Part shown: positions 2,346-40,329 of the stretch, in pieces
How positions within the stretch are numbered: position 1 is the first letter of the stretch
Layout of the letters: the number at the start of each line of letters is the position of its first letter
Origin: Carcharhinus amblyrhynchos
Taxonomy: Eukaryota
Direction: 5' to 3'
DNA length: 64,000 nt
NCBI GenBank assembly: GCA_965287045.1
Contig: OZ336885.1
Location: 36,208,001 to 36,272,000 of the forward strand
Notes under the pieces: model-generated
The model's input: the letters and a program-made list of their open reading frames with translations, nothing else
Database searches by the model: none
What the model was told of the DNA's origin: nothing
Position numbers and translations under genes: made by a program

Positions 2346-2897
2346 TAGAACATAGAACATTACAGCGCAGAACAGGCCCTTCGGCCCACGATGTTGCGCT
2401 GACCAGTTAAAAAACAATGACCCTCTAACCTAAACCAATCCCTTTCCATCCATAAACCTATCCACGGATCTCTTAAACACCCCCAAACTAGGCGCATTTA
2501 CAACTGCAGCAGGCAGGGCATTCCAATCCCTCACCACCCTCTGGGTAAAGAACCTACCCCTGACATCCGTCCTATAACTACCCCCTCTTAATTTAAAGCC
2601 ATGCCCCCTCGTGCTAGCTTTCTCCATCCGAGAAAAAACGCTATCACTGTCCACCCTATCTAAACCTCCAATCATCTTATATGTTTCAACAAGATCCCCT
2701 CTTAGCCGCCTTCTTTCTAACGAAAACAACCCCAAATCCCTCAGTCTCTCCTCATAGGACCTCCCCTCCATACCAGGCAACATCCTGGTAAACCTCCTCT
2801 GCACCCTCTCCAAAGCCTCCACATCCTTCCTATAATGTGGGGACCAGAACTGCACACAATACTCCAAGTGCGGCCGCACCAGAGTTGTGTACAACTT
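2346..2897 (-). mobile_element. Relatively young 5'-truncated CR1 LINE
   Basis: Uninterrupted 168-aa ORF (LYTTLVRPHLEYCVQFWSPHYRKDVEALERVQRRFTRMLPG...FFTQRVVRDWNALP); tandem tagaaca tail at ~2347-2361. Confidence 0.92.
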
Positions 2898-3026
2898 GCT
2901 GATACATCTTGTTGTACATCTTGCTCTACTCAACATGAAATCATAGACAACTTTGGTTAAAATAGTAGATTCTTAGTTTTGATGTTAAGTAAATATTTTG
3001 CGGATCTTCTAATTTTTTTATTTTAG

Positions 3027-22672: not shown

Positions 22673-25600
22673 CTATGCAGGCTGACTACTGAGGCCAACA
22701 CCAGAGGATGAGCCACAAACAGGTTCCGCCACATTATCTGAAAGACCATCATTTGACTGATCAAGGAGTTGATCAAGCTCCTCACCTTCACTATCTGCTG
22801 TGTTACCTTGCCATTCCAACAGTGGATTAGATAAACTTTCCTCGTTATCTGGTGAAACATTCTTCCATTCAGGCTGTTCTTTGGCCCACTTTCCCCCTTC
22901 ATTTTGGAATGGCTCTCCACTCCACTCAGCTGGCCCTTCTGCCCAGTTCTGCCTCGCAGTTTCTAACGAAGCTTTTGTTTCAGAAGGCCGTGGAGGCTCC
23001 TGCTCCTCTTCACTTTGGGATGCATCATCTGTCCACGGTCGTTTGATCCAAAATTCTTGTTTGAGTTCAGCTGAAACATCCTCCTGATCAGATGCTTGTG
23101 GAGATGGTAGTCCATCCTCAACTGGAGAAGCACCATCTTTACATTCTGAGAATACTTCAGAATCCTCACTTTCAGATTCTTTACCTTTTGATTCTGAAGC
23201 TGGTTCAGGATACTGCTCTTCTTCCATATTTGATTCATCATTCTTCAGCTCCAGTGTTGCTGCTTTTGTAAATGCAGGTTTTTGCAATTCATTATTTAAC
23301 TCTCCAGGAACCATTTCAGAAGTTTCTTCTCTGGACTGAAAACCATCCATTTCAGTTGATGTCAAATCATCACCTGCACAAGTATTAGAAGCATTTTCCT
23401 CCACATTATCTGGACTCATATTTGAAGTACTTTCCTCCACCATATCTGGACTCATATTTGAAGGACTTATTTCCACCATCTCCGAGCTCATGTTTGAAGG
23501 ACTTCCATCCACCATCTCCGAGCTCACATTCGAAGGGCTTTTCTCCACCATCTGAGAACTCAAATCTAAAACACTTCCCTCCACCATGTCTGAGCTCATA
23601 TTGGAAGGACTTTCCTCCACCATCTCAGAGCTCAAATATGAAGGACTTTCTTCGACCATCTCAGCACTCTTGATTGAAGGACTTTGCTCTACCATCTGAG
23701 CACTCAAATCTAATGGGGCTCCCTCTATCTCTGAGCTCACGTTTGAAGGACTTTCTTCCATTTGAGTGCTCAAATCTAAAGCGCTTCCATCCATTTTTTG
23801 AGCACTCTGGCTCAAAGCACCTCCTTCCACCTTTTCAGAGTTTGAACATGAGTTTTCCTCCATTTGGGAGCTCAAATCTAAAACAGTTCCCTCCACCTTT
23901 TCTGATCCCAGACTCAAAACTCTTCTCTCTTTTTCTGGCTTCTGATTGGCTTTTGCTGAGTTTGGTTTCAAACTGGCAGATTCTTTGCCATCCACTTCTT
24001 TGTTATTTAACATATTCCAGGCAGGTCCAAAGTCCATATTGTGCTTTACTTTTCGCAATTCCATCATGTTAAATCCAAGTAACACCTTAGGCCGATACCT
24101 CTCACAATCTCGAACACATTTCTTCCTCTTATTGCTGAAGTGTGAGGCAATATCGGATTTCCATAACCATAGGCCAGCTGCCAACTTCTCAATTTCCCTT
24201 CTGTTTGGGTAGGGCTGCTTGTTAAAGTAGTTGGTGAGGAACATTTTTCTTGCCTCATAGGACTCATCCTCATAGCCCTTGGGGTCAATAGCTAGAACGA
24301 CTGGCTCTTCTGGTTTATCTTCTCCCAAGGTAAAACTCTGAACAGTTTCCTCACCATCCAATTTTCTTTTTTTCATTAAAGCAAAGTCTCCATATTCATA
24401 CTCATATTCACGTTTCATGGGCATTACACTTGGTGAATGTGTTGCCTTGGCATGAGCAAGACTTCGATCTTGACCATTTTGTGCTTTTCCCACACCTCTA
24501 CAGTGTACCAAATGCAACGTTATAGTAGAGGCCGTCATGTTGCTTGTGTAGACGCCCAAACAATGAATACATTTATAGGTGAGTTTTTTCTCCACTGGAT
24601 GAATGGTTTGTATCACCTGATGTCGTTCCCTCAAATGGTGAGCCAAAGCATCAGATATTGGGCCCTTCAAAATAGAGAAGCACAATGGGCAAAGGGTCTT
24701 TCCCACATCATTTTTATAGGGTATTTGGGTCTGAGGTATTGAATTCAAATCTGGCTTTATTTTAGATTTAACCTGTGGTTTCGGCTGCTGCAACTGCCCT
24801 TCTGGTTTTCTGAATGTTAAATTCTGACTCTGGGGTCGATAGTTTGCATTCTCCATTGAGGCACTCTCAGAAACACTGTACGTAGTTACAAGAAGTTGTA
24901 TATTGCTGCGACTACCCTTCTGTGTAGACAAATCAAAAGTCAACGTTGACTCGGTCTTAGGTCCCACTTCTTCATCAATGTGAAGGATTCGTACATGTTC
25001 AGCCATCTTTTCAACATCATTGAAAGTGGAACGACAGTAAGGACATGACAGTCCATGTATTAACATATGATTAAGCAGTGTTTCACTGGGTAAATAACGG
25101 TTGCAGTAGAGACACTTGCTTGTGAAACTGTTGATCTTCTGAATGTAATTCGCCACAGCCTGGATCTTTTCAGCTTTATGTTCCTTTTCAAAATGTATGC
25201 TATACACACTTTCCGGGAAAAGCTCATTACACATTGTGCAGATCTTCCATTTCTGAGCAGCAGAACCAGCTAATGCAGAGCTTTGAGACGCAGAATTAGT
25301 GAGGCCTGCTGGAGAAGTTAATGACTTTACCGCCGAAGTGGGCAATCCTTGCATCCTTTGTGCTTGAGAAATACTGTACTGTGACTGCTTCATTGACAGT
25401 TGACTGGATGCACTGTTACCAGTCAAGCTTCCTGACTGAACATTATACTGCATCTGAGATTGCCGTCTGTGTTCCCCAACTCCATACTGCCTTCCATTGC
25501 CACTTGAAATAAGTTGTTTTACTGTTTGCGATCGTTGCTGAAGAGAAACTGGTAAACCACCTGGCAGTGGGAGTCTAATTTGTTGTCCCAAAGGATAGTT

Positions 25601-26392
25601 ATGTGCCATTGATGAAATGGCATATTTTGGTGGCAGACGACTTGTACTTGACATAAGATTGACTGCAGAATTCTGTGCACTTTTAGACATGGATACACGA
25701 CTCATACTCTGATGCATTGAAGTTTTAATACTTTGATAATTTGCAGCAGCTAGGGAAGGTTTATCATGTGGCTTTGGTGCTATCAGCATCAAGGGCTTTG
25801 ATCTTGGTACTACCACATTAGTATGCCCTATCATTGCTGTTACTTGGTATCCTATTCGTTCATGATCTTCAATAACATGCTGTACCAAGGCTTCGTATGT
25901 CTTAGGTATGAAGAGACAACGTTTGCAATGTACAGTCCCATCCTCTCGTCCATTAGGGGCAGAAAATGTGCCATTCACGGACTTATCTCCTGTTCTTGCC
26001 ACATAAGGTGCTGCCACATGTTGAAAATGTTCCCTGTAAATATGTTTCCTAACAACATCGTATAGAGGATCACGGTAGGTACATTTCTTACAGTAATAGA
26101 CTGCTTGCTCCACACTGTCAGCATGTTTCAGTTTAAGATTGCCATCCTGCTTTGACTTTTCATTGTGTGCATTCTTGCCTCCACTGGGTACTTTCCACAG
26201 AGGAACATGAAAGATCTTGATATGAGTCTCCAGGGTCTTTCTGTCAGCATTGTATGGGCAATAAGGGCAATTTATCAGAATTTTGTTTTCAAAATCTTCA
26301 CTATGAACATTCCTGAAGTGGCTCTTGTAGGCAGAAAAAAATTTGGATGCAAATGGACAAGCACTACAACAAAACGGTTTTGTACGATAATC
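22673..26392 (-). CDS. ADNP: ADNP last large coding exon (C2H2 zinc fingers, NLS, homeodomain, PxVxL, acidic C-terminus)
   Basis: ttttcag|GAT TAT CGT ACA = [14 protein letters not shown]..., open to the stop (3720 nt); contains [73 protein letters not shown], ...LSSQPA*. Confidence 0.97.
23390..23905 (-). repeat. In-frame ~36-bp (12-aa) coding tandem repeat in ADNP
   Basis: Units such as [12 protein letters not shown] / [12 protein letters not shown] / [12 protein letters not shown] / [12 protein letters not shown]; the DNA repeats ttccaccatctc..agctca..tttgaaggact. Confidence 0.9.
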
Positions 26393-27099
26393 CTGAAAAT
26401 GTAAAACAACAGTGGTTATTATTGTTCTATCTATACAGGTGCAGTTTAAATTAGCCTAATTTTGTTTATATTATGATTACAACAAAAGGCATCCATGGAT
26501 TGCATGTCTGTCACATTCACCCAATATTATGCATAGAATGTTTTTGAATTTTAAATACACTAAAAATCATTCTGAAGTGGATTACATTCAATATGGTCTT
26601 GGTTCCTACACTGGGAAAGAATGCATTTTCACATTTATTAATTGTGCTTGAACTGCACCTAGTGTAAAGGCTTGAAACAGCTGAAAAGAATTAGCTACAT
26701 TTTACAGTGCTTCATCAGCAATAAGATGCTATATTTTAAAAAATGATCACGGTCATTGATAGCAAGGCTAGTATTTATTGCTGAGTCTAACTGCTCCCAA
26801 AGTGGCGGTGAGCTGTCTTCTTCAACTGTTGCAGCCCATGGTATTCTCAACTACACGCTAGCCAACTGAGCTAACCACAGTAATGTCAAAATCCAGGATT
26901 TTGACAAGTAACCCATGTCACATCCTGTAACAACACATTAACTGAATCTAAATAATTGTTAAATGCAAAATGTTTATGGCCAATTAAAAATTTTGATTTT
27001 TGATAACTAAAGCTTTGTATGCGGTCCAAATGTTAATTCATTACATTAAAATTTTTGTACAGGCTAAATGAGGCATAATACTCCACTAAAATGTGGTCC

Positions 27100-30828: not shown

Positions 30829-30921
30829 CTGTAGCTTTGTAGATGAAGGGTCCCAAAGTGAGACATCGTCCCATGTAGTGTTCTTCAGGTAAAAGTCATT
30901 TGGTTCAAACTGTTTGAAATC
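30829..30921 (-). CDS. ADNP: ADNP second coding exon
   Basis: ttccag|GAT...CAG|gttagt, 93 nt; [31 protein letters not shown]. Confidence 0.96.
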
Positions 30922-31129
30922 CTGGAAGAACGGTTTACTTGTATGAATGAATCATTTTTAAAAATGATACAATATCTGTAGTCATAGCTTTAAATGAAAA
31001 AAGTTTCATGGAAACTTTGTACTTCAGTAATAACTTCTAAATTTCTCTCCTCCAGAGGAAAAATTTCTTTCCTCTCCTCCCAAAAATTATAAAATCACAA
31101 TCACTTAAAATAGGTTGAGTGGCTACATA

Positions 31130-31760
31130 GACACACAGAAGCAGGAGTAGGCCATTCGACCCTTCGAGTCTCCTCCGCCATTCATTTTGATCATGACTGA
31201 TCATCAAATTCAATATCCTGATCACCCCTTCCCTGCATATCCCTCCAACTCCAAGACAGGCATCTAATTTCTTGAAATCAGACAATGCTTTGGCCCCAAC
31301 GGTCTGTGGTAATGAATTCCACACATTGACCACCCTCTGGGTGAAGAAATTTCTTCTCACCTCAATTCTAAAAGATTTACCCCTTATTCTCAAACTATGA
31401 CCCTGAGTTTTGGAATCAGTCGCCATTGGGAACATTCTTTTTGAATCTACCTGTCTAACCTTGTTAGAATTCTTTCAGTTTCTATGAGATTCCCTCTCAC
31501 TTTTAAACTCCAGTGAACATAATCCTAACTGACTTTGTCTCTCCTCATATGACAGACCTGCCATCCTGAGAATCAACCTGGTAAAACTTTGCTGTGCTCC
31601 CTCTAAAGCGAGGACATTCTCAGGTAAGTACACCAAAACTGCACACAATACTCAGATGTGGTCTCATAGCCTATACAATTTCAGCAAAACATCTGTATCC
31701 TTAAATCCTCTTGCTATGCTGGCCAACATACCATTCGCCTTCTTTACTGCCTGCTGCATC
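31130..31760 (-). mobile_element. CR1 LINE 3' fragment
   Basis: GHSLRIRGKSFRIEVRRNFFTQRVVNVWNSLPQ. Confidence 0.88.
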
Positions 31761-34440: not shown

Positions 34441-34548
34441 CTCTATATGATCTTTACAATAATCCAAACCAATATCCGTAAGGATTTTTTTCACTGTTTT
34501 ACGAGCCTTTCTTAGATTTGCAAGGTTGTTGACAGGAAGCTGGTACAT
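34441..34548 (-). CDS. ADNP: ADNP first coding exon (exon begins at 34553 with 5 nt of UTR)
   Basis: cag|aaactATG; [36 protein letters not shown]|gtaagt, 108 coding nt. Confidence 0.96.
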
Positions 34549-37357: not shown

Positions 37358-38935
37358 TTACAGCACAGAAACAGACCCTTTAGCCCTCCAAGCCTGCACC
37401 AACTGTGCTGCCTGACTTAACTAATATCCCCTATGCTTCAGGGGACCTTATCCCTCTATTCCCATCTCATTCATGTACTTGTCAAGACACCCCTTGAAAG
37501 TCACTACGTATCTGCTTCCACTACCTCCCCCGGTAAAGAGTTCTGTGTAAAAAAATCTGCCTCGTAAATCTCTTAAAACTTGCCCCTTAAACCTATGCCC
37601 CCTAGTAACTGACTCTTCCACCCTGGGAAAAAGCTTCTGACTATCCACTCTGTCCATGCCTCTCATAATCTTGTAGACTTCTATCAGGTCTCCCCTCAGC
37701 CTCCATCACTCCAGTGAGAATAAACCAAATCTCTCCAACCTCTCCTCATAGCAATGCCCTCCATACCAGGCAACATCCCAGTAAATCTTTTCTGTACCCT
37801 CTCCAAAGCCTCCACATCCTTCTGGTTGTGTGGTGACCAGAATTGAACACCATATTCTAAGTGCGGCCTCACTAAGGTTCTATAAAGCATCAGCATGACT
37901 TGCCAATTTTTAAACTCAATACCCTGGCCAAAGAAGGCAAGCATGCCGTATGCCTTGACTACCTGCATTGCCATTGTACGCCCAGATCGCTTTGCCTATC
38001 AATACTCCTAAGGGTTCTGCTATTTACTGTGCATTTCTCATTTGTATTACACCTTCCAAAATGCATTACCTCACATTTGTCCAGATTAAACTCCACCTGT
38101 TATCTCTCTGCCCAAGTCTCCAACTGATCCATATCCTACTGTATCCTCTGATGGTCCTCATCGCTATCCACAAATTCACCAACCTTTGTGTTATCAGCAA
38201 ACCTACTAATCAATCCAGTTACATTTTCCTCCAAATCATTTATATATATTACAAACAGCAAAGGTCCCAGCACTGATCCTTGAAGAACATCACTTGTCAT
38301 AGCCCTCCATTCAGAAACGCGCCATTGCACCTCTATCCTCTGTCTTCTTTGACCGAACCAGTTTTGTATCCACCTTGCCAGCTCACCTCTGATCCCATGC
38401 GACTTTACCTTCTGCACCAGTCTGCCATGAGGGACCTTGTCAAAGGCCTTACTGAAGTCCATGTAGACAACATCCACTGCCCTACCCTCATTAATCATCT
38501 TCGTCACTTCCTCGAAAAACTCAATCACAAAACCAAGTTGCCTCTCACTAATATATCCACTTATTTCCAAGTGGGAATAAATCCTGTCTCGAAGAATCCT
38601 CTCCAATAATTTCCCTACCACTGATGTAAGGCTCACTGGCCTGTAATTACCTGGATTTTTTCTGCTACCCTTCTTAAACAAAGGAACAACATTGGCTACT
38701 CTCAAATCCCATGGGACCTTCCCTTTGGCCAGTGAGGATACAAAGATTTCTGTCAAGGCCCCAGCAATTTCCTCTCTTGCCTCTCTCAGTATTCTGGGGT
38801 ATACCCCATCAGGTCCTGGAGACTTGTCTATCTTTATGTTTTTCAAGAACCCCAATATCTCCTTTTTGATCTCAACATGACTCAAACTATCTACACATCC
38901 TTTCCCAGACTCATCATCCATCAAGTCCTTCTCTT
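37358..38935 (-). mobile_element. CR1 LINE, RT domain to 3' end (frameshifted)
   Basis: 278-aa ORF with KSPGPDGVYPRIL, PGNYRPVSLTSVVGKLLE, YMDFSKAFDKVPH, QGSVLGPLLFVIYINDL, FADNTK. Confidence 0.95.
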
Positions 38936-40329
38936 GATGTGTCACTATGATGTGTTCTGACATATAGGCCACAATGATCCTAGGTTTGATAACGGGACTG
39001 TATGTCAGCTCTCTGATCTCAACAGGGGCAATGTGGATATTTTAATTAGCTTAAGTATTCCAAGCAAGCAAGATTTGGGGGGTGGAGCACTAAAAAGGCA
39101 GGCAACCTTTCCAAGCAGATTCCCCTGTTAGAAAGCATATGTAAAAAGTGCACGAGGATGAATTATAAGTTCCAGTTCAGTTATGATGCTCACCAGTCAA
39201 ATAGTCTGACATTTATGTTACACATAAAGAACAACTACTTTGACAAGATAATGGAGATTGCTATTACTTCAGGAAACATACCACACCATTCCAACAAATA
39301 CTGGAAAATGTTAATACTTTTATGGCAGTTATAGACAGAAAAATGTCTATTACACCAATTTTAAAACCTCACGAAAAGAATAAGGCAAACTTTGAAGCAT
39401 ACATTCAGGACAAGTTTCCTGGAAGTAATCAAGGCTCAAATTTAAGAGGAACCTGAATGCCAATTACATTAAGCTGAGAAGGAAAGCTGTAATTCAACAA
39501 ACATTAATTAATAGGGAATGGCCACAAATCAAAGTTTCAAACTGCAGCTATTGAAGGCATTTAGCTGCTAGAAATTATAGAAGCTTTTCCCACTAATTTG
39601 AAATCATATGCATGCCCGGAGGTCACACACATCAATTGTAGCCTGAAATTAAGAATGCAATATATCTCACCTGAACTTTTGTCCCCAGGTTTAAGAGTTT
39701 GCGGTTGAGGGTATTTCTGTGGGAAATAAAAATACAACTTTTGACTAATACTATTAAACTAAAAGTTGAACTTTCAGATAAGAAACACAAGACTTGAAAA
39801 AAAAGTTACAATGCTTTAGTCTCTGGGGAAATTTAAAATGAGTCCATAACAAATCAAAATTACAATGAGAGAGAGAACACTGGACAACAGCCTTTAAACT
39901 GTAGGTATGAGGAATTAATAAATCAAGTTTGTCTATCAGCTCTAATGCTATGCTGGCCAGACCGAGGATATTTCAGCATATCAAAAATATGCCTCTACTT
40001 TTTCCAAAGATGCATTTTTAGTGACCTTACATGGGATCTAACATGTTACACTGCCATTTTAAAGATCTAGCCTGCGGGATATGATGGTGATATTCACTCA
40101 TCATCTCAGTTGAGTTTCAATACATTAACTAGAAGCCCAGTTGCTCATGAGTATACATGAATTCAAATGGGAGTCAACTGTAGCTCAAGCAATTGCCCTT
40201 TGAAACATGTTTCCAAAGTCCTAACGTGGTGCATTGCTCTTTATAACAGAGTTCTAAGAAATGTAACTAAAGGTTTCATTTGGCCGAAATGAAAGATCCA
40301 GGAAACCATTTGAGGCAAAAAGGTTTCTA

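What the first reader, a model, noticed from the sequence alone, without database searches (positions are those of the whole stretch)
23558..23884. Shark ADNP carries an array of four CtBP-type docking motifs created by a tandem repeat expansion
Seen: between the homeodomain/PxVxL and the conserved acidic tail lie VLDLS (23870-23884), ALDLS (23768-23782), a canonical PLDLS (23702-23716) and another VLDLS (23558-23572), interspersed with Ser-Pro-rich units. Established: PxDLS is the CtBP corepressor-binding motif, and ALDLS plus VLDLS are the two variants that EBV EBNA3A uses to bind CtBP. ADNP normally works in the ChAHP complex (CHD4-ADNP-HP1). I recall no such motifs in human ADNP. Inference: this lineage may have a multivalent CtBP-recruiting ChAHP variant that couples ADNP-directed silencing to oligomeric, NADH-sensitive CtBP.
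Basis: partly seen in the sequence, partly recalled or inferred. Interest (0 to 1): 0.8.

Follow-up and report, generated by a model that had tools for sequence, protein, structure and literature searches.

The report
Shark ADNP's four CtBP docking motifs
In every shark and ray sampled, the gene-silencing protein ADNP (an autism gene in people) carries four conserved copies of a short motif, absent from the land-vertebrate copies sampled, that likely lets it grip the co-repressor CtBP at several points; spiny-rayed fishes carry one such motif that they likely gained separately.

Summary
VLDLS, ALDLS, PLDLS and VLDLS lie in the Ser/Glu-rich tail of ADNP, in register with an 11-12-residue repeat. 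All four are kept in 23 of 23 elasmobranch sequences (window, 13 sharks, 9 rays and skates). Their Leu-Asp-Leu core shows 0 changes in 12 columns against 1.17 per column elsewhere in the array (P about 4e-5). Chimaeras have one ALDLS; 0 of 61 tetrapod, lobe-fin and early ray-fin sequences have any. New here: 38 of 52 spiny-rayed fish genera carry a canonical PLDLS in the same tail, likely a separate gain. Papers show that ALDLS (RAI2, EBNA3A) and VLDLS (ZBTB18, EBNA3A) bind CtBP, and that LDL is the contacting core in RAI2. Binding by shark ADNP is not shown; a complex prediction gave weak support only (0.60 vs 0.00). Best reading: a multivalent CtBP-recruiting ChAHP variant. Caveat: tandem ALDLS in RAI2 polymerises and inactivates CtBP, so the sign of the effect is open. 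I found no ADNP-CtBP motif in the papers searched. It is a new variant of a known kind.

The parts
34441..34548 (-). ADNP first coding exon (start Met)
   Evidence: tblastn of Mustelus ADNP residues 1-36, 100% identical
30829..30921 (-). ADNP second coding exon (upper edge approximate)
   Evidence: tblastn hit 30936-30829, upper edge trimmed to the matching residues
22673..26392 (-). ADNP large last coding exon: zinc fingers, homeodomain, PxVxL, repeat array, acidic tail, stop
   Evidence: Open frame 22673-26455, of which the first 21 codons are read as intron; Pfam ADNP_N
24119..24244 (-). Homeodomain (Pfam-matched part)
   Evidence: PF00046, residues 738-779 of P0001
24077..24091 (-). HP1-binding PxVxL motif (PKVLL)
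   Evidence: Sequence; kept in 24 of 25 chondrichthyan sequences
23372..23905 (-). Array of 11-12-residue units (178 aa; 44 Ser, 35 Asp/Glu, 9 SP/TP sites) holding four xLDLS units among Ser-Pro-Ser units
23870..23884 (-). Site 1, VLDLS (ILDLS in 5 rays, FLDLS in one unnamed skate-like sequence)
   Evidence: weak complex prediction for this site
23768..23782 (-). Site 2, ALDLS; invariant in elasmobranchs and the one site shared with chimaeras
23702..23716 (-). Site 3, canonical PLDLS (PLDLR in whale shark and zebra shark)
   Evidence: both forms fit the ELM pattern quoted in PMC1524906
23558..23572 (-). Site 4, VLDLS (12 of 23) or ALDLS (11 of 23), inside the 36-bp tandem repeat

Best explanation
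Elasmobranch ADNP carries four conserved xLDLS motifs in a repeat-derived, likely disordered tail, and these likely dock into the PxDLS cleft of CtBP, so that chromatin-bound ADNP would recruit CtBP at several points at once. Shown: the motifs, their conservation and spacing, an intact PxVxL next to them, and three CtBP genes in the same genome. Inferred from known biology: each Leu-Asp-Leu core pairs as a beta-strand with CtBP strand beta-2, as in RAI2. Four low-micromolar sites would give avidity for NAD(H)-assembled CtBP tetramers. ADNP, targeted by its zinc fingers and HP1, would add the CtBP co-repressor machinery to CHD4/HP1 silencing. Inferred history: one ALDLS and the Ser-Pro repeat were present in the chondrichthyan ancestor, and the motif unit was copied to four before sharks and rays split (or chimaeras lost copies). 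Spiny-rayed fishes gained a single PLDLS by point changes at another site.
For: 23 of 23 elasmobranch sequences keep four motifs, with start-to-start spacing 32-35, 21-23 and 48. On a 29-sequence tree the LDL core has 0 changes in 12 columns against 1.17 per column in the rest of the array, P about 4e-5. With residue-matched Leu and Asp columns P is 2.6e-4. The same-register triplets of the 11 non-motif units show 46 changes in 33 columns. The tolerated changes stay within known CtBP ligands: site 4 toggles between VLDLS and ALDLS, and the single change at position 5 (Ser to Arg, site 3) is allowed by the ELM pattern [PG][LVIPME][DENS]L[VASTRGE]. In RAI2 only the central LDL makes specific contacts, and a single ALDLS binds at about 5 uM (PMC11187106). 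ZBTB18 VLDLS binds CtBP and an LDL mutation abolishes binding (PMC9684030). EBNA3A ALDLS and VLDLS synergise (PMC2883600). 38 of 52 named spiny-rayed genera carry PLDLS and cod carries PLNLS, against 0 of 14 other ray-finned genera; the teleost motif is more conserved than its upstream linker, P = 0.006. The genome has three CtBP loci, and the one N-terminal exon recovered is 50 of 52 residues identical to bird CtBP1. Complex prediction for site 1 with CtBP1: weak support, score 0.60 against best control 0.00, at least 57% contact agreement between runs, partner pLDDT 46-48. That mark was reached by 51 of 78 solved and 2 of 108 mismatched pairs, but at 0.60 or under by only 5 of the 78 and by all 4 mismatches that passed. 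Like complexes are solved, so the pass may come from memory.
Against: There are no binding data. Only site 3 matches the ELM pattern; sites 1, 2 and 4 rest on precedents from other proteins. The distal array is conserved throughout (57% of columns invariant in residues 921-1028), so site 4 alone does not stand out (P = 0.18). All four copies share identical LDL codons (0 synonymous differences), so a DNA- or RNA-level constraint is not excluded; no ray DNA was found to test it. The teleost PLDLS abuts an older conserved motif (EPIAIDSDS) and is lost or altered in 13 of 52 genera, including all 6 pipefish and seahorse genera. The ChAHP2 paper does not mention CtBP in its main text. RAI2 shows that multivalent ALDLS can switch CtBP off. 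Permutation P values treat columns as independent.
Confidence: 0.55

Rival explanations
1. The motifs bind CtBP but work like RAI2: they bridge stacked CtBP tetramers into filaments or foci. ADNP would then either sequester and inactivate CtBP, or nucleate CtBP polymers anchored at ChAHP sites.
For: RAI2 needs only two ALDLS motifs with a 21-residue linker, and a 10-residue linker also works. The linker between sites 2 and 3 is 16-18 residues and the spacing is conserved. 11 of 23 sequences have two ALDLS copies, as RAI2 does.
Against: RAI2 has no folded domain, whereas ADNP is a DNA- and HP1-bound repressor, for which switching off a co-repressor is less natural. Chimaeras and teleosts have a single motif, which did not drive oligomerisation in RAI2 single-site mutants. 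Many ordinary CtBP recruiters have several motifs (recalled).
Confidence: 0.2
2. The motifs are SUMO-interacting motifs (a tandem array reading poly-SUMO) or ligands of another beta-strand-binding protein, in a phosphorylated acidic context.
For: V/I-L-D-L followed by Ser and Glu resembles the SIM core (consensus recalled, not from a call). Site 1 varies among Val, Ile and Phe. The teleost motif is followed by a SIM-like PIAID plus an acidic stretch.
Against: Site 2 is invariantly Ala-first, site 3 Pro-first, and site 4 is Ala-first in 11 of 23, which fits CtBP ligands better than SIMs. Position 5 is Ser, not the Thr of PIAS-type SIMs (recalled).
Confidence: 0.1
3. There is no specific protein partner. 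The units are copies in a slowly evolving tandem repeat, kept alike by slow shark evolution, gene conversion or a DNA/RNA-level constraint.
For: Elasmobranch ADNP evolves slowly (85% identity window to skate). Ser-Pro-Ser units are also well conserved. The LDL codons are identical in all four copies.
Against: Around sites 1-3 the flanks average 1.95 changes per column while LDL has none (P about 1e-5). Residues right beside each core differ between copies, which argues against recent conversion. One ALDLS survives in chimaeras amid diverged flanks. Only 3 codon columns carry the synonymous signal, against 2 of 4 varying comparison columns, which is not significant.
Confidence: 0.15

Closest known systems
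ChAHP complex (ADNP-CHD4-HP1) of mouse and human
   Same: Same gene: ADNP_N zinc-finger region, homeodomain and PxVxL. ChAHP is described as repressing SINE B2 and other retrotransposons (PMC11293393, passages).
   Different: Mammal-like ADNP sequences sampled have no xLDLS in the tail. The paper calls the ADNP C-terminal unstructured region poorly conserved between paralogs and does not mention CtBP in its main text.
RAI2 tandem ALDLS motifs (PMC11187106)
   Same: Repeated non-canonical xLDLS motifs in a low-complexity segment, with a comparable linker (21 residues vs 16-18 for sites 2-3). LDL is the contacting core there and the invariant core here.
   Different: RAI2 has two motifs and no folded domain. 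Elasmobranch ADNP has four, built from a tandem repeat and attached to DNA- and HP1-binding domains.
EBV EBNA3A (ALDLS + VLDLS) and ZBTB18 (VLDLS)
   Same: The identical pentapeptides are shown to bind CtBP.
   Different: These are unrelated proteins with two motifs and one motif, and no tandem repeat was described in the passages read.
Canonical PxDLS CtBP ligands (E1A, EBNA3C, Snail, Knirps)
   Same: Site 3 and the teleost motif are exact PLDLS; PxDLS domains recruit and depend on CtBP (PMC9890238, passages).
   Different: Here the motif is lineage-restricted on an otherwise conserved vertebrate protein and appears at two non-homologous sites in two fish lineages.

Membership tests
CtBP-binding PxDLS ligand (ELM LIG_CtBP) | Match to [PG][LVIPME][DENS]L[VASTRGE] | tested here: met
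   Site 3 only, including the PLDLR variant
CtBP-binding PxDLS ligand (ELM LIG_CtBP) | Same pattern at sites 1, 2 and 4 | tested here: not met
   First residue is V/I/F or A. These are filed only as non-canonical variants with precedents in RAI2, ZBTB18 and EBNA3A
CtBP-binding PxDLS ligand (ELM LIG_CtBP) | Accessible, disordered context | tested here: inconclusive
   Outside Pfam domains; 44 Ser, 35 Asp/Glu, 10 Pro and 1 aromatic in 178 residues. No disorder predictor was run
CtBP-binding PxDLS ligand (ELM LIG_CtBP) | Motif more conserved than its flanks | tested here: met
   0 changes in 12 LDL columns, P about 4e-5; site 4 alone is not significant
CtBP-binding PxDLS ligand (ELM LIG_CtBP) | CtBP present in the same organism with a conserved binding domain | tested here: met
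   Three loci; N-terminal exon recovered for one of the three, 50 of 52 identical to bird CtBP1
CtBP-binding PxDLS ligand (ELM LIG_CtBP) | Physical binding lost on motif mutation | not testable with these tools
   Only a weak structure prediction for site 1, with no contacts given
ADNP / ChAHP subunit | ADNP_N zinc fingers, homeodomain and PxVxL | tested here: met
   the paralog ADNP2 is a separate locus, L026
ADNP / ChAHP subunit | Stable complex with CHD4 and HP1 | not testable with these tools
   Inferred from mouse; no shark data seen
RAI2-type CtBP polymeriser | Two or more xLDLS motifs with a 10-21-residue linker | tested here: met
   Sites 2-3, linker 16-18; the other linkers are 27-30 and 43
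RAI2-type CtBP polymeriser | Protein without folded domains | tested here: not met
   ADNP has zinc fingers and a homeodomain
RAI2-type CtBP polymeriser | Induces CtBP filaments or foci and relieves repression | not testable with these tools
   Needs EM and cell assays
Tandem SUMO-interacting motifs | Val/Ile-rich four-residue core at each site (consensus recalled) | tested here: not met
   Site 2 is always Ala-first; site 4 is Ala-first in 11 of 23; only site 1 fits throughout

The most novel reading that the evidence does not exclude
ADNP has been wired to CtBP twice in fishes. In sharks and rays a tandem repeat amplified the link into a four-site array that nucleates RAI2-like CtBP filaments on chromatin. 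This would tie transposon silencing by ChAHP to the NAD(H) state and could bridge distant ADNP sites.
Probability: 0.15. Interest if true: 0.85.

Novelty: new variant of a known kind. Interest (0 to 1): 0.58.

Why it matters
ADNP is the core of ChAHP, which silences retrotransposons and competes with CTCF, and it is a human neurodevelopmental disease gene whose disordered tail has no well-defined role. If the motifs bind CtBP, the co-repressor set of ChAHP differs between vertebrate lineages and has been rewired twice by short-motif gain. That affects how fish ADNP models are read: medaka, stickleback, killifish and cichlids carry the motif, while the cypriniform and catfish sequences sampled do not. 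It is also a clear natural case of a coding tandem repeat raising the valency of a linear motif (0, 1 and 4 copies). That gives a ready series for asking when several xLDLS motifs recruit CtBP and when they polymerise and inactivate it.

Tried and rejected
Literature. ADNP + PxDLS: 0 papers. ADNP + PLDLS: 3 papers, 2 listed, and in both PLDLS occurs only in a reference title. ADNP + CtBP: 42 papers, 25 seen as a listing; the top one was read in passages and both proteins are only TBR1 candidates there. ADNP + shark: 23 papers, 15 seen as a listing, none relevant by title. ADNP + SUMO-interacting motif: 3 papers, 1 read in passages, no ADNP SIM. Subscription journals and supplements were not searched; ADNP interactome tables there could list CtBP. 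Ray or chimaera DNA for a synonymous-site test: two metagenome scans found no relative. Laying four public runs gave one contig spanning the array with 9 differences; none of the 8 listed falls in a motif, which has too little power, and the run is only guessed to be RNA. Two runs laid nothing and one touched only the edge. A read-level check of splicing into this exon was not obtained, so expression of the array rests on annotated orthologs. No lamprey, hagfish or invertebrate outgroup was among the 120 of 401 and 120 of 176 hits listed, so gain in cartilaginous fishes versus loss in bony fishes is unrooted for site 2. Homology of the teleost and shark motifs was considered because both sit about 104 residues after the PxVxL. 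It was rejected as less likely: 14 of 14 intervening ray-finned genera lack the motif at the aligned site, and the flanks are unrelated. Earlier scan findings: none.

Full report
What is there. The window holds the ADNP gene on the minus strand, with coding exons at 34441-34548, about 30829-30921 and about 22673-26392. The protein matches Pfam ADNP_N and Homeodomain and is 99.0% identical to Mustelus asterias ADNP, so the source is a shark. Residue numbers refer to P0001, the stop-to-stop translation; add 46 for full-length numbering. After the homeodomain and the HP1-binding PKVLL comes a 178-residue stretch rich in Ser and Glu. It holds VLDLS (858), ALDLS (892), PLDLS (914) and VLDLS (962) at exactly the coordinates given.

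The repeat. TRF reports a 36-bp unit repeated 9 times at 23383-23706 and a 144-bp period at 23434-23760. Codon alignment extends the register of 11-12 residues over all four motifs: LDL sits where the other units have SNM, SNV, SYL or SIK. Over their last 30 nt the four motif units differ from each other at 4-9 positions and from non-motif units at 7-17. This fits copying of one motif unit better than four separate origins (inference).

Conservation in cartilaginous fishes. From I took one sequence per named species, dropping isoform duplicates; 2 of 17 and 8 of 23 members of two clusters were not listed. All 23 elasmobranch sequences (window, 13 named sharks, 9 named rays and skates) have four motifs. 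Site 1 is VLDLS in 18 and ILDLS in 5; site 2 is ALDLS in 23; site 3 is PLDLS in 21 and PLDLR in 2; site 4 is VLDLS in 12 and ALDLS in 11. Start-to-start spacing is 32-35, 21-23 and 48, while rays lack one non-motif unit downstream of site 4. On a tree of 29 sequences (these 23 plus 6 unnamed skate-like ones) the 12 LDL columns show no change. The rest of the array averages 1.17 changes per column (P about 4e-5), residue-matched Leu and Asp columns give P = 2.6e-4, and the same-register triplets of 11 non-motif units show 46 changes in 33 columns. Against this: columns are treated as independent, and the distal array is conserved enough that site 4 alone is not significant (P = 0.18). The four copies also share identical LDL codons, which is a weak hint of nucleotide-level constraint that I could not test. 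Both chimaera sequences have a single ALDLS at site 2, followed by Ser-Pro units without motifs.

Bony vertebrates. None of 61 sequences P0050-P0110 (mammals, birds, reptiles, amphibians, coelacanth, lungfish, sturgeon, gar, bowfin, eels, bonytongues, some unnamed) has a tail motif. Human ADNP was not examined directly. Unexpectedly, spiny-rayed fishes do have one: 38 of 52 named acanthomorph genera carry exact PLDLS in adnpb, cod carries PLNLS, and 13 have lost or altered it, against 0 of 14 other ray-finned genera at the aligned site. Left out of that count were three unnamed sequences, a truncated Tetraodon, and one record labelled Lepidogalaxias that has PLNLS but nests with cods in my tree. 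If that label is right, the gain is older. The teleost motif is more conserved than its upstream linker (P = 0.006) but abuts an older conserved EPIAIDSDS. Of 231 bony-vertebrate sequences, 95 have one motif and none has two or more. The flanks are unrelated to the shark array and the intervening lineages lack the motif, so a separate gain is the likelier history (inference; no jawless outgroup was seen).

What the motif does elsewhere. PMC11187106 (parts 1-4 of 10 read: abstract to discussion and start of methods) covers RAI2. Its two ALDLS motifs, 21 residues apart, each bind CtBP at about 5 uM; only the central LDL makes specific contacts, with CtBP strand beta-2. The tandem pair bridges CtBP tetramers into filaments and foci and relieves repression, and a 10-residue linker also works. 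PMC9684030 (passages): ZBTB18 binds CtBP through VLDLS, and an LDL mutation abolishes it. PMC2883600 (passages): EBNA3A ALDLS and VLDLS synergise. PMC1524906 (passages) quotes the ELM pattern [PG][LVIPME][DENS]L[VASTRGE], which admits PLDLR and PLNLS but not Ala- or Val-first forms. PMC9890238 (passages): PxDLS domains recruit and depend on CtBP. So the invariant residues are the ones that contact CtBP, and the changes seen are largely between forms known or allowed to bind it.

The partner. The genome has three CtBP loci on contigs C1, C13 and C17. The N-terminal exon recovered for the C13 gene is 50 of 52 residues identical to bird CtBP1 P0295. A complex prediction of site 1 (residues 847-880) with two copies of P0295 and NAD gave weak support: 0.60 against a best control of 0.00, at least 57% contact agreement, partner pLDDT 46-48, and no contacts reported. 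The mark was reached by 51 of 78 solved and 2 of 108 mismatched pairs, but at 0.60 or under by only 5 of the 78 and by all 4 mismatches that passed. Peptides are untested in that calibration and like complexes are solved. It adds little.

Mechanism. Most likely (0.55) the array is a multivalent CtBP-recruiting module on ChAHP: ADNP reaches chromatin through its zinc fingers and HP1, and four weak sites give avidity for NAD(H)-assembled CtBP. A RAI2-like outcome, with polymers that sequester CtBP or anchor it on chromatin, gets 0.2; the 16-18-residue linker of sites 2-3 is within the range that polymerises. CtBP binding in either form thus totals about 0.75. SUMO or another partner gets 0.1, and no partner 0.15. 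The motifs, conservation, spacing and distribution are shown; binding, avidity and effect on transcription are inferred.

Novelty. Both parts are known: ChAHP (PMC11293393, passages; no mention of CtBP in its main text) and PxDLS ligands. Their combination on ADNP, the repeat-built four-site array and the apparent second gain in teleosts were not found in ten searches of the open literature; subscription papers and supplements were not seen. Verdict: real, under selection, a new variant of a known kind, binding untested. Interest 0.58.

Noticed in passing
P0152 residues 931-945 and other teleost adnpb proteins: The teleost PLDLS runs directly into EPIAIDSDSDEE, a SIM-like hydrophobic-plus-acidic motif conserved in most teleosts sampled. 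A joint CtBP-plus-SUMO site is possible.
   Followed up: partly
P0256, P0257, P0260, P0262, P0268, P0269: Pipefishes and seahorses have lost PLDLS but have Pro at the first position of the HP1 motif, whereas most spiny-rayed fishes with PLDLS have a non-Pro version (such as ASVLL). The pattern is not exclusive: Fundulus, Poecilia, Solea and notothenioids have both.
   Followed up: partly
P0259: The ADNP record labelled Lepidogalaxias salamandroides groups with Gadus and Muraenolepis, not at the base of euteleosts. It may be a mislabelled or contaminated record.
   Followed up: no
window 23372-23760 (-): The non-motif units keep Ser-Pro-Ser well conserved in sharks, rays and chimaeras (9 SP/TP sites in the array). 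They may form a phosphorylation array that tunes the neighbouring motifs.
   Followed up: no
L026:1-2199 (+), G000 contig C2: The ADNP2 paralog has a VVDLT (PIAS-type SIM-like, recalled) just before its second zinc-finger cluster, and no xLDLS in the part read, which ends shortly after the PxVxL.
   Followed up: no
G000 contigs C1, C13, C17 (L001-L024): This shark has three CtBP genes rather than the two described for humans.
   Followed up: partly
window about 25535-25565 (-), P0001 near residue 299: At the position where mammal-like ADNP has the NAP octapeptide (motif recalled), the shark has a divergent but related stretch.
   Followed up: no
window 2433-2972, 31040-31474, 38139-39041 (-): Open frames that look like LINE (CR1/L2-type) reverse-transcriptase or flanking fragments by eye; ordinary repeats.
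   Followed up: no
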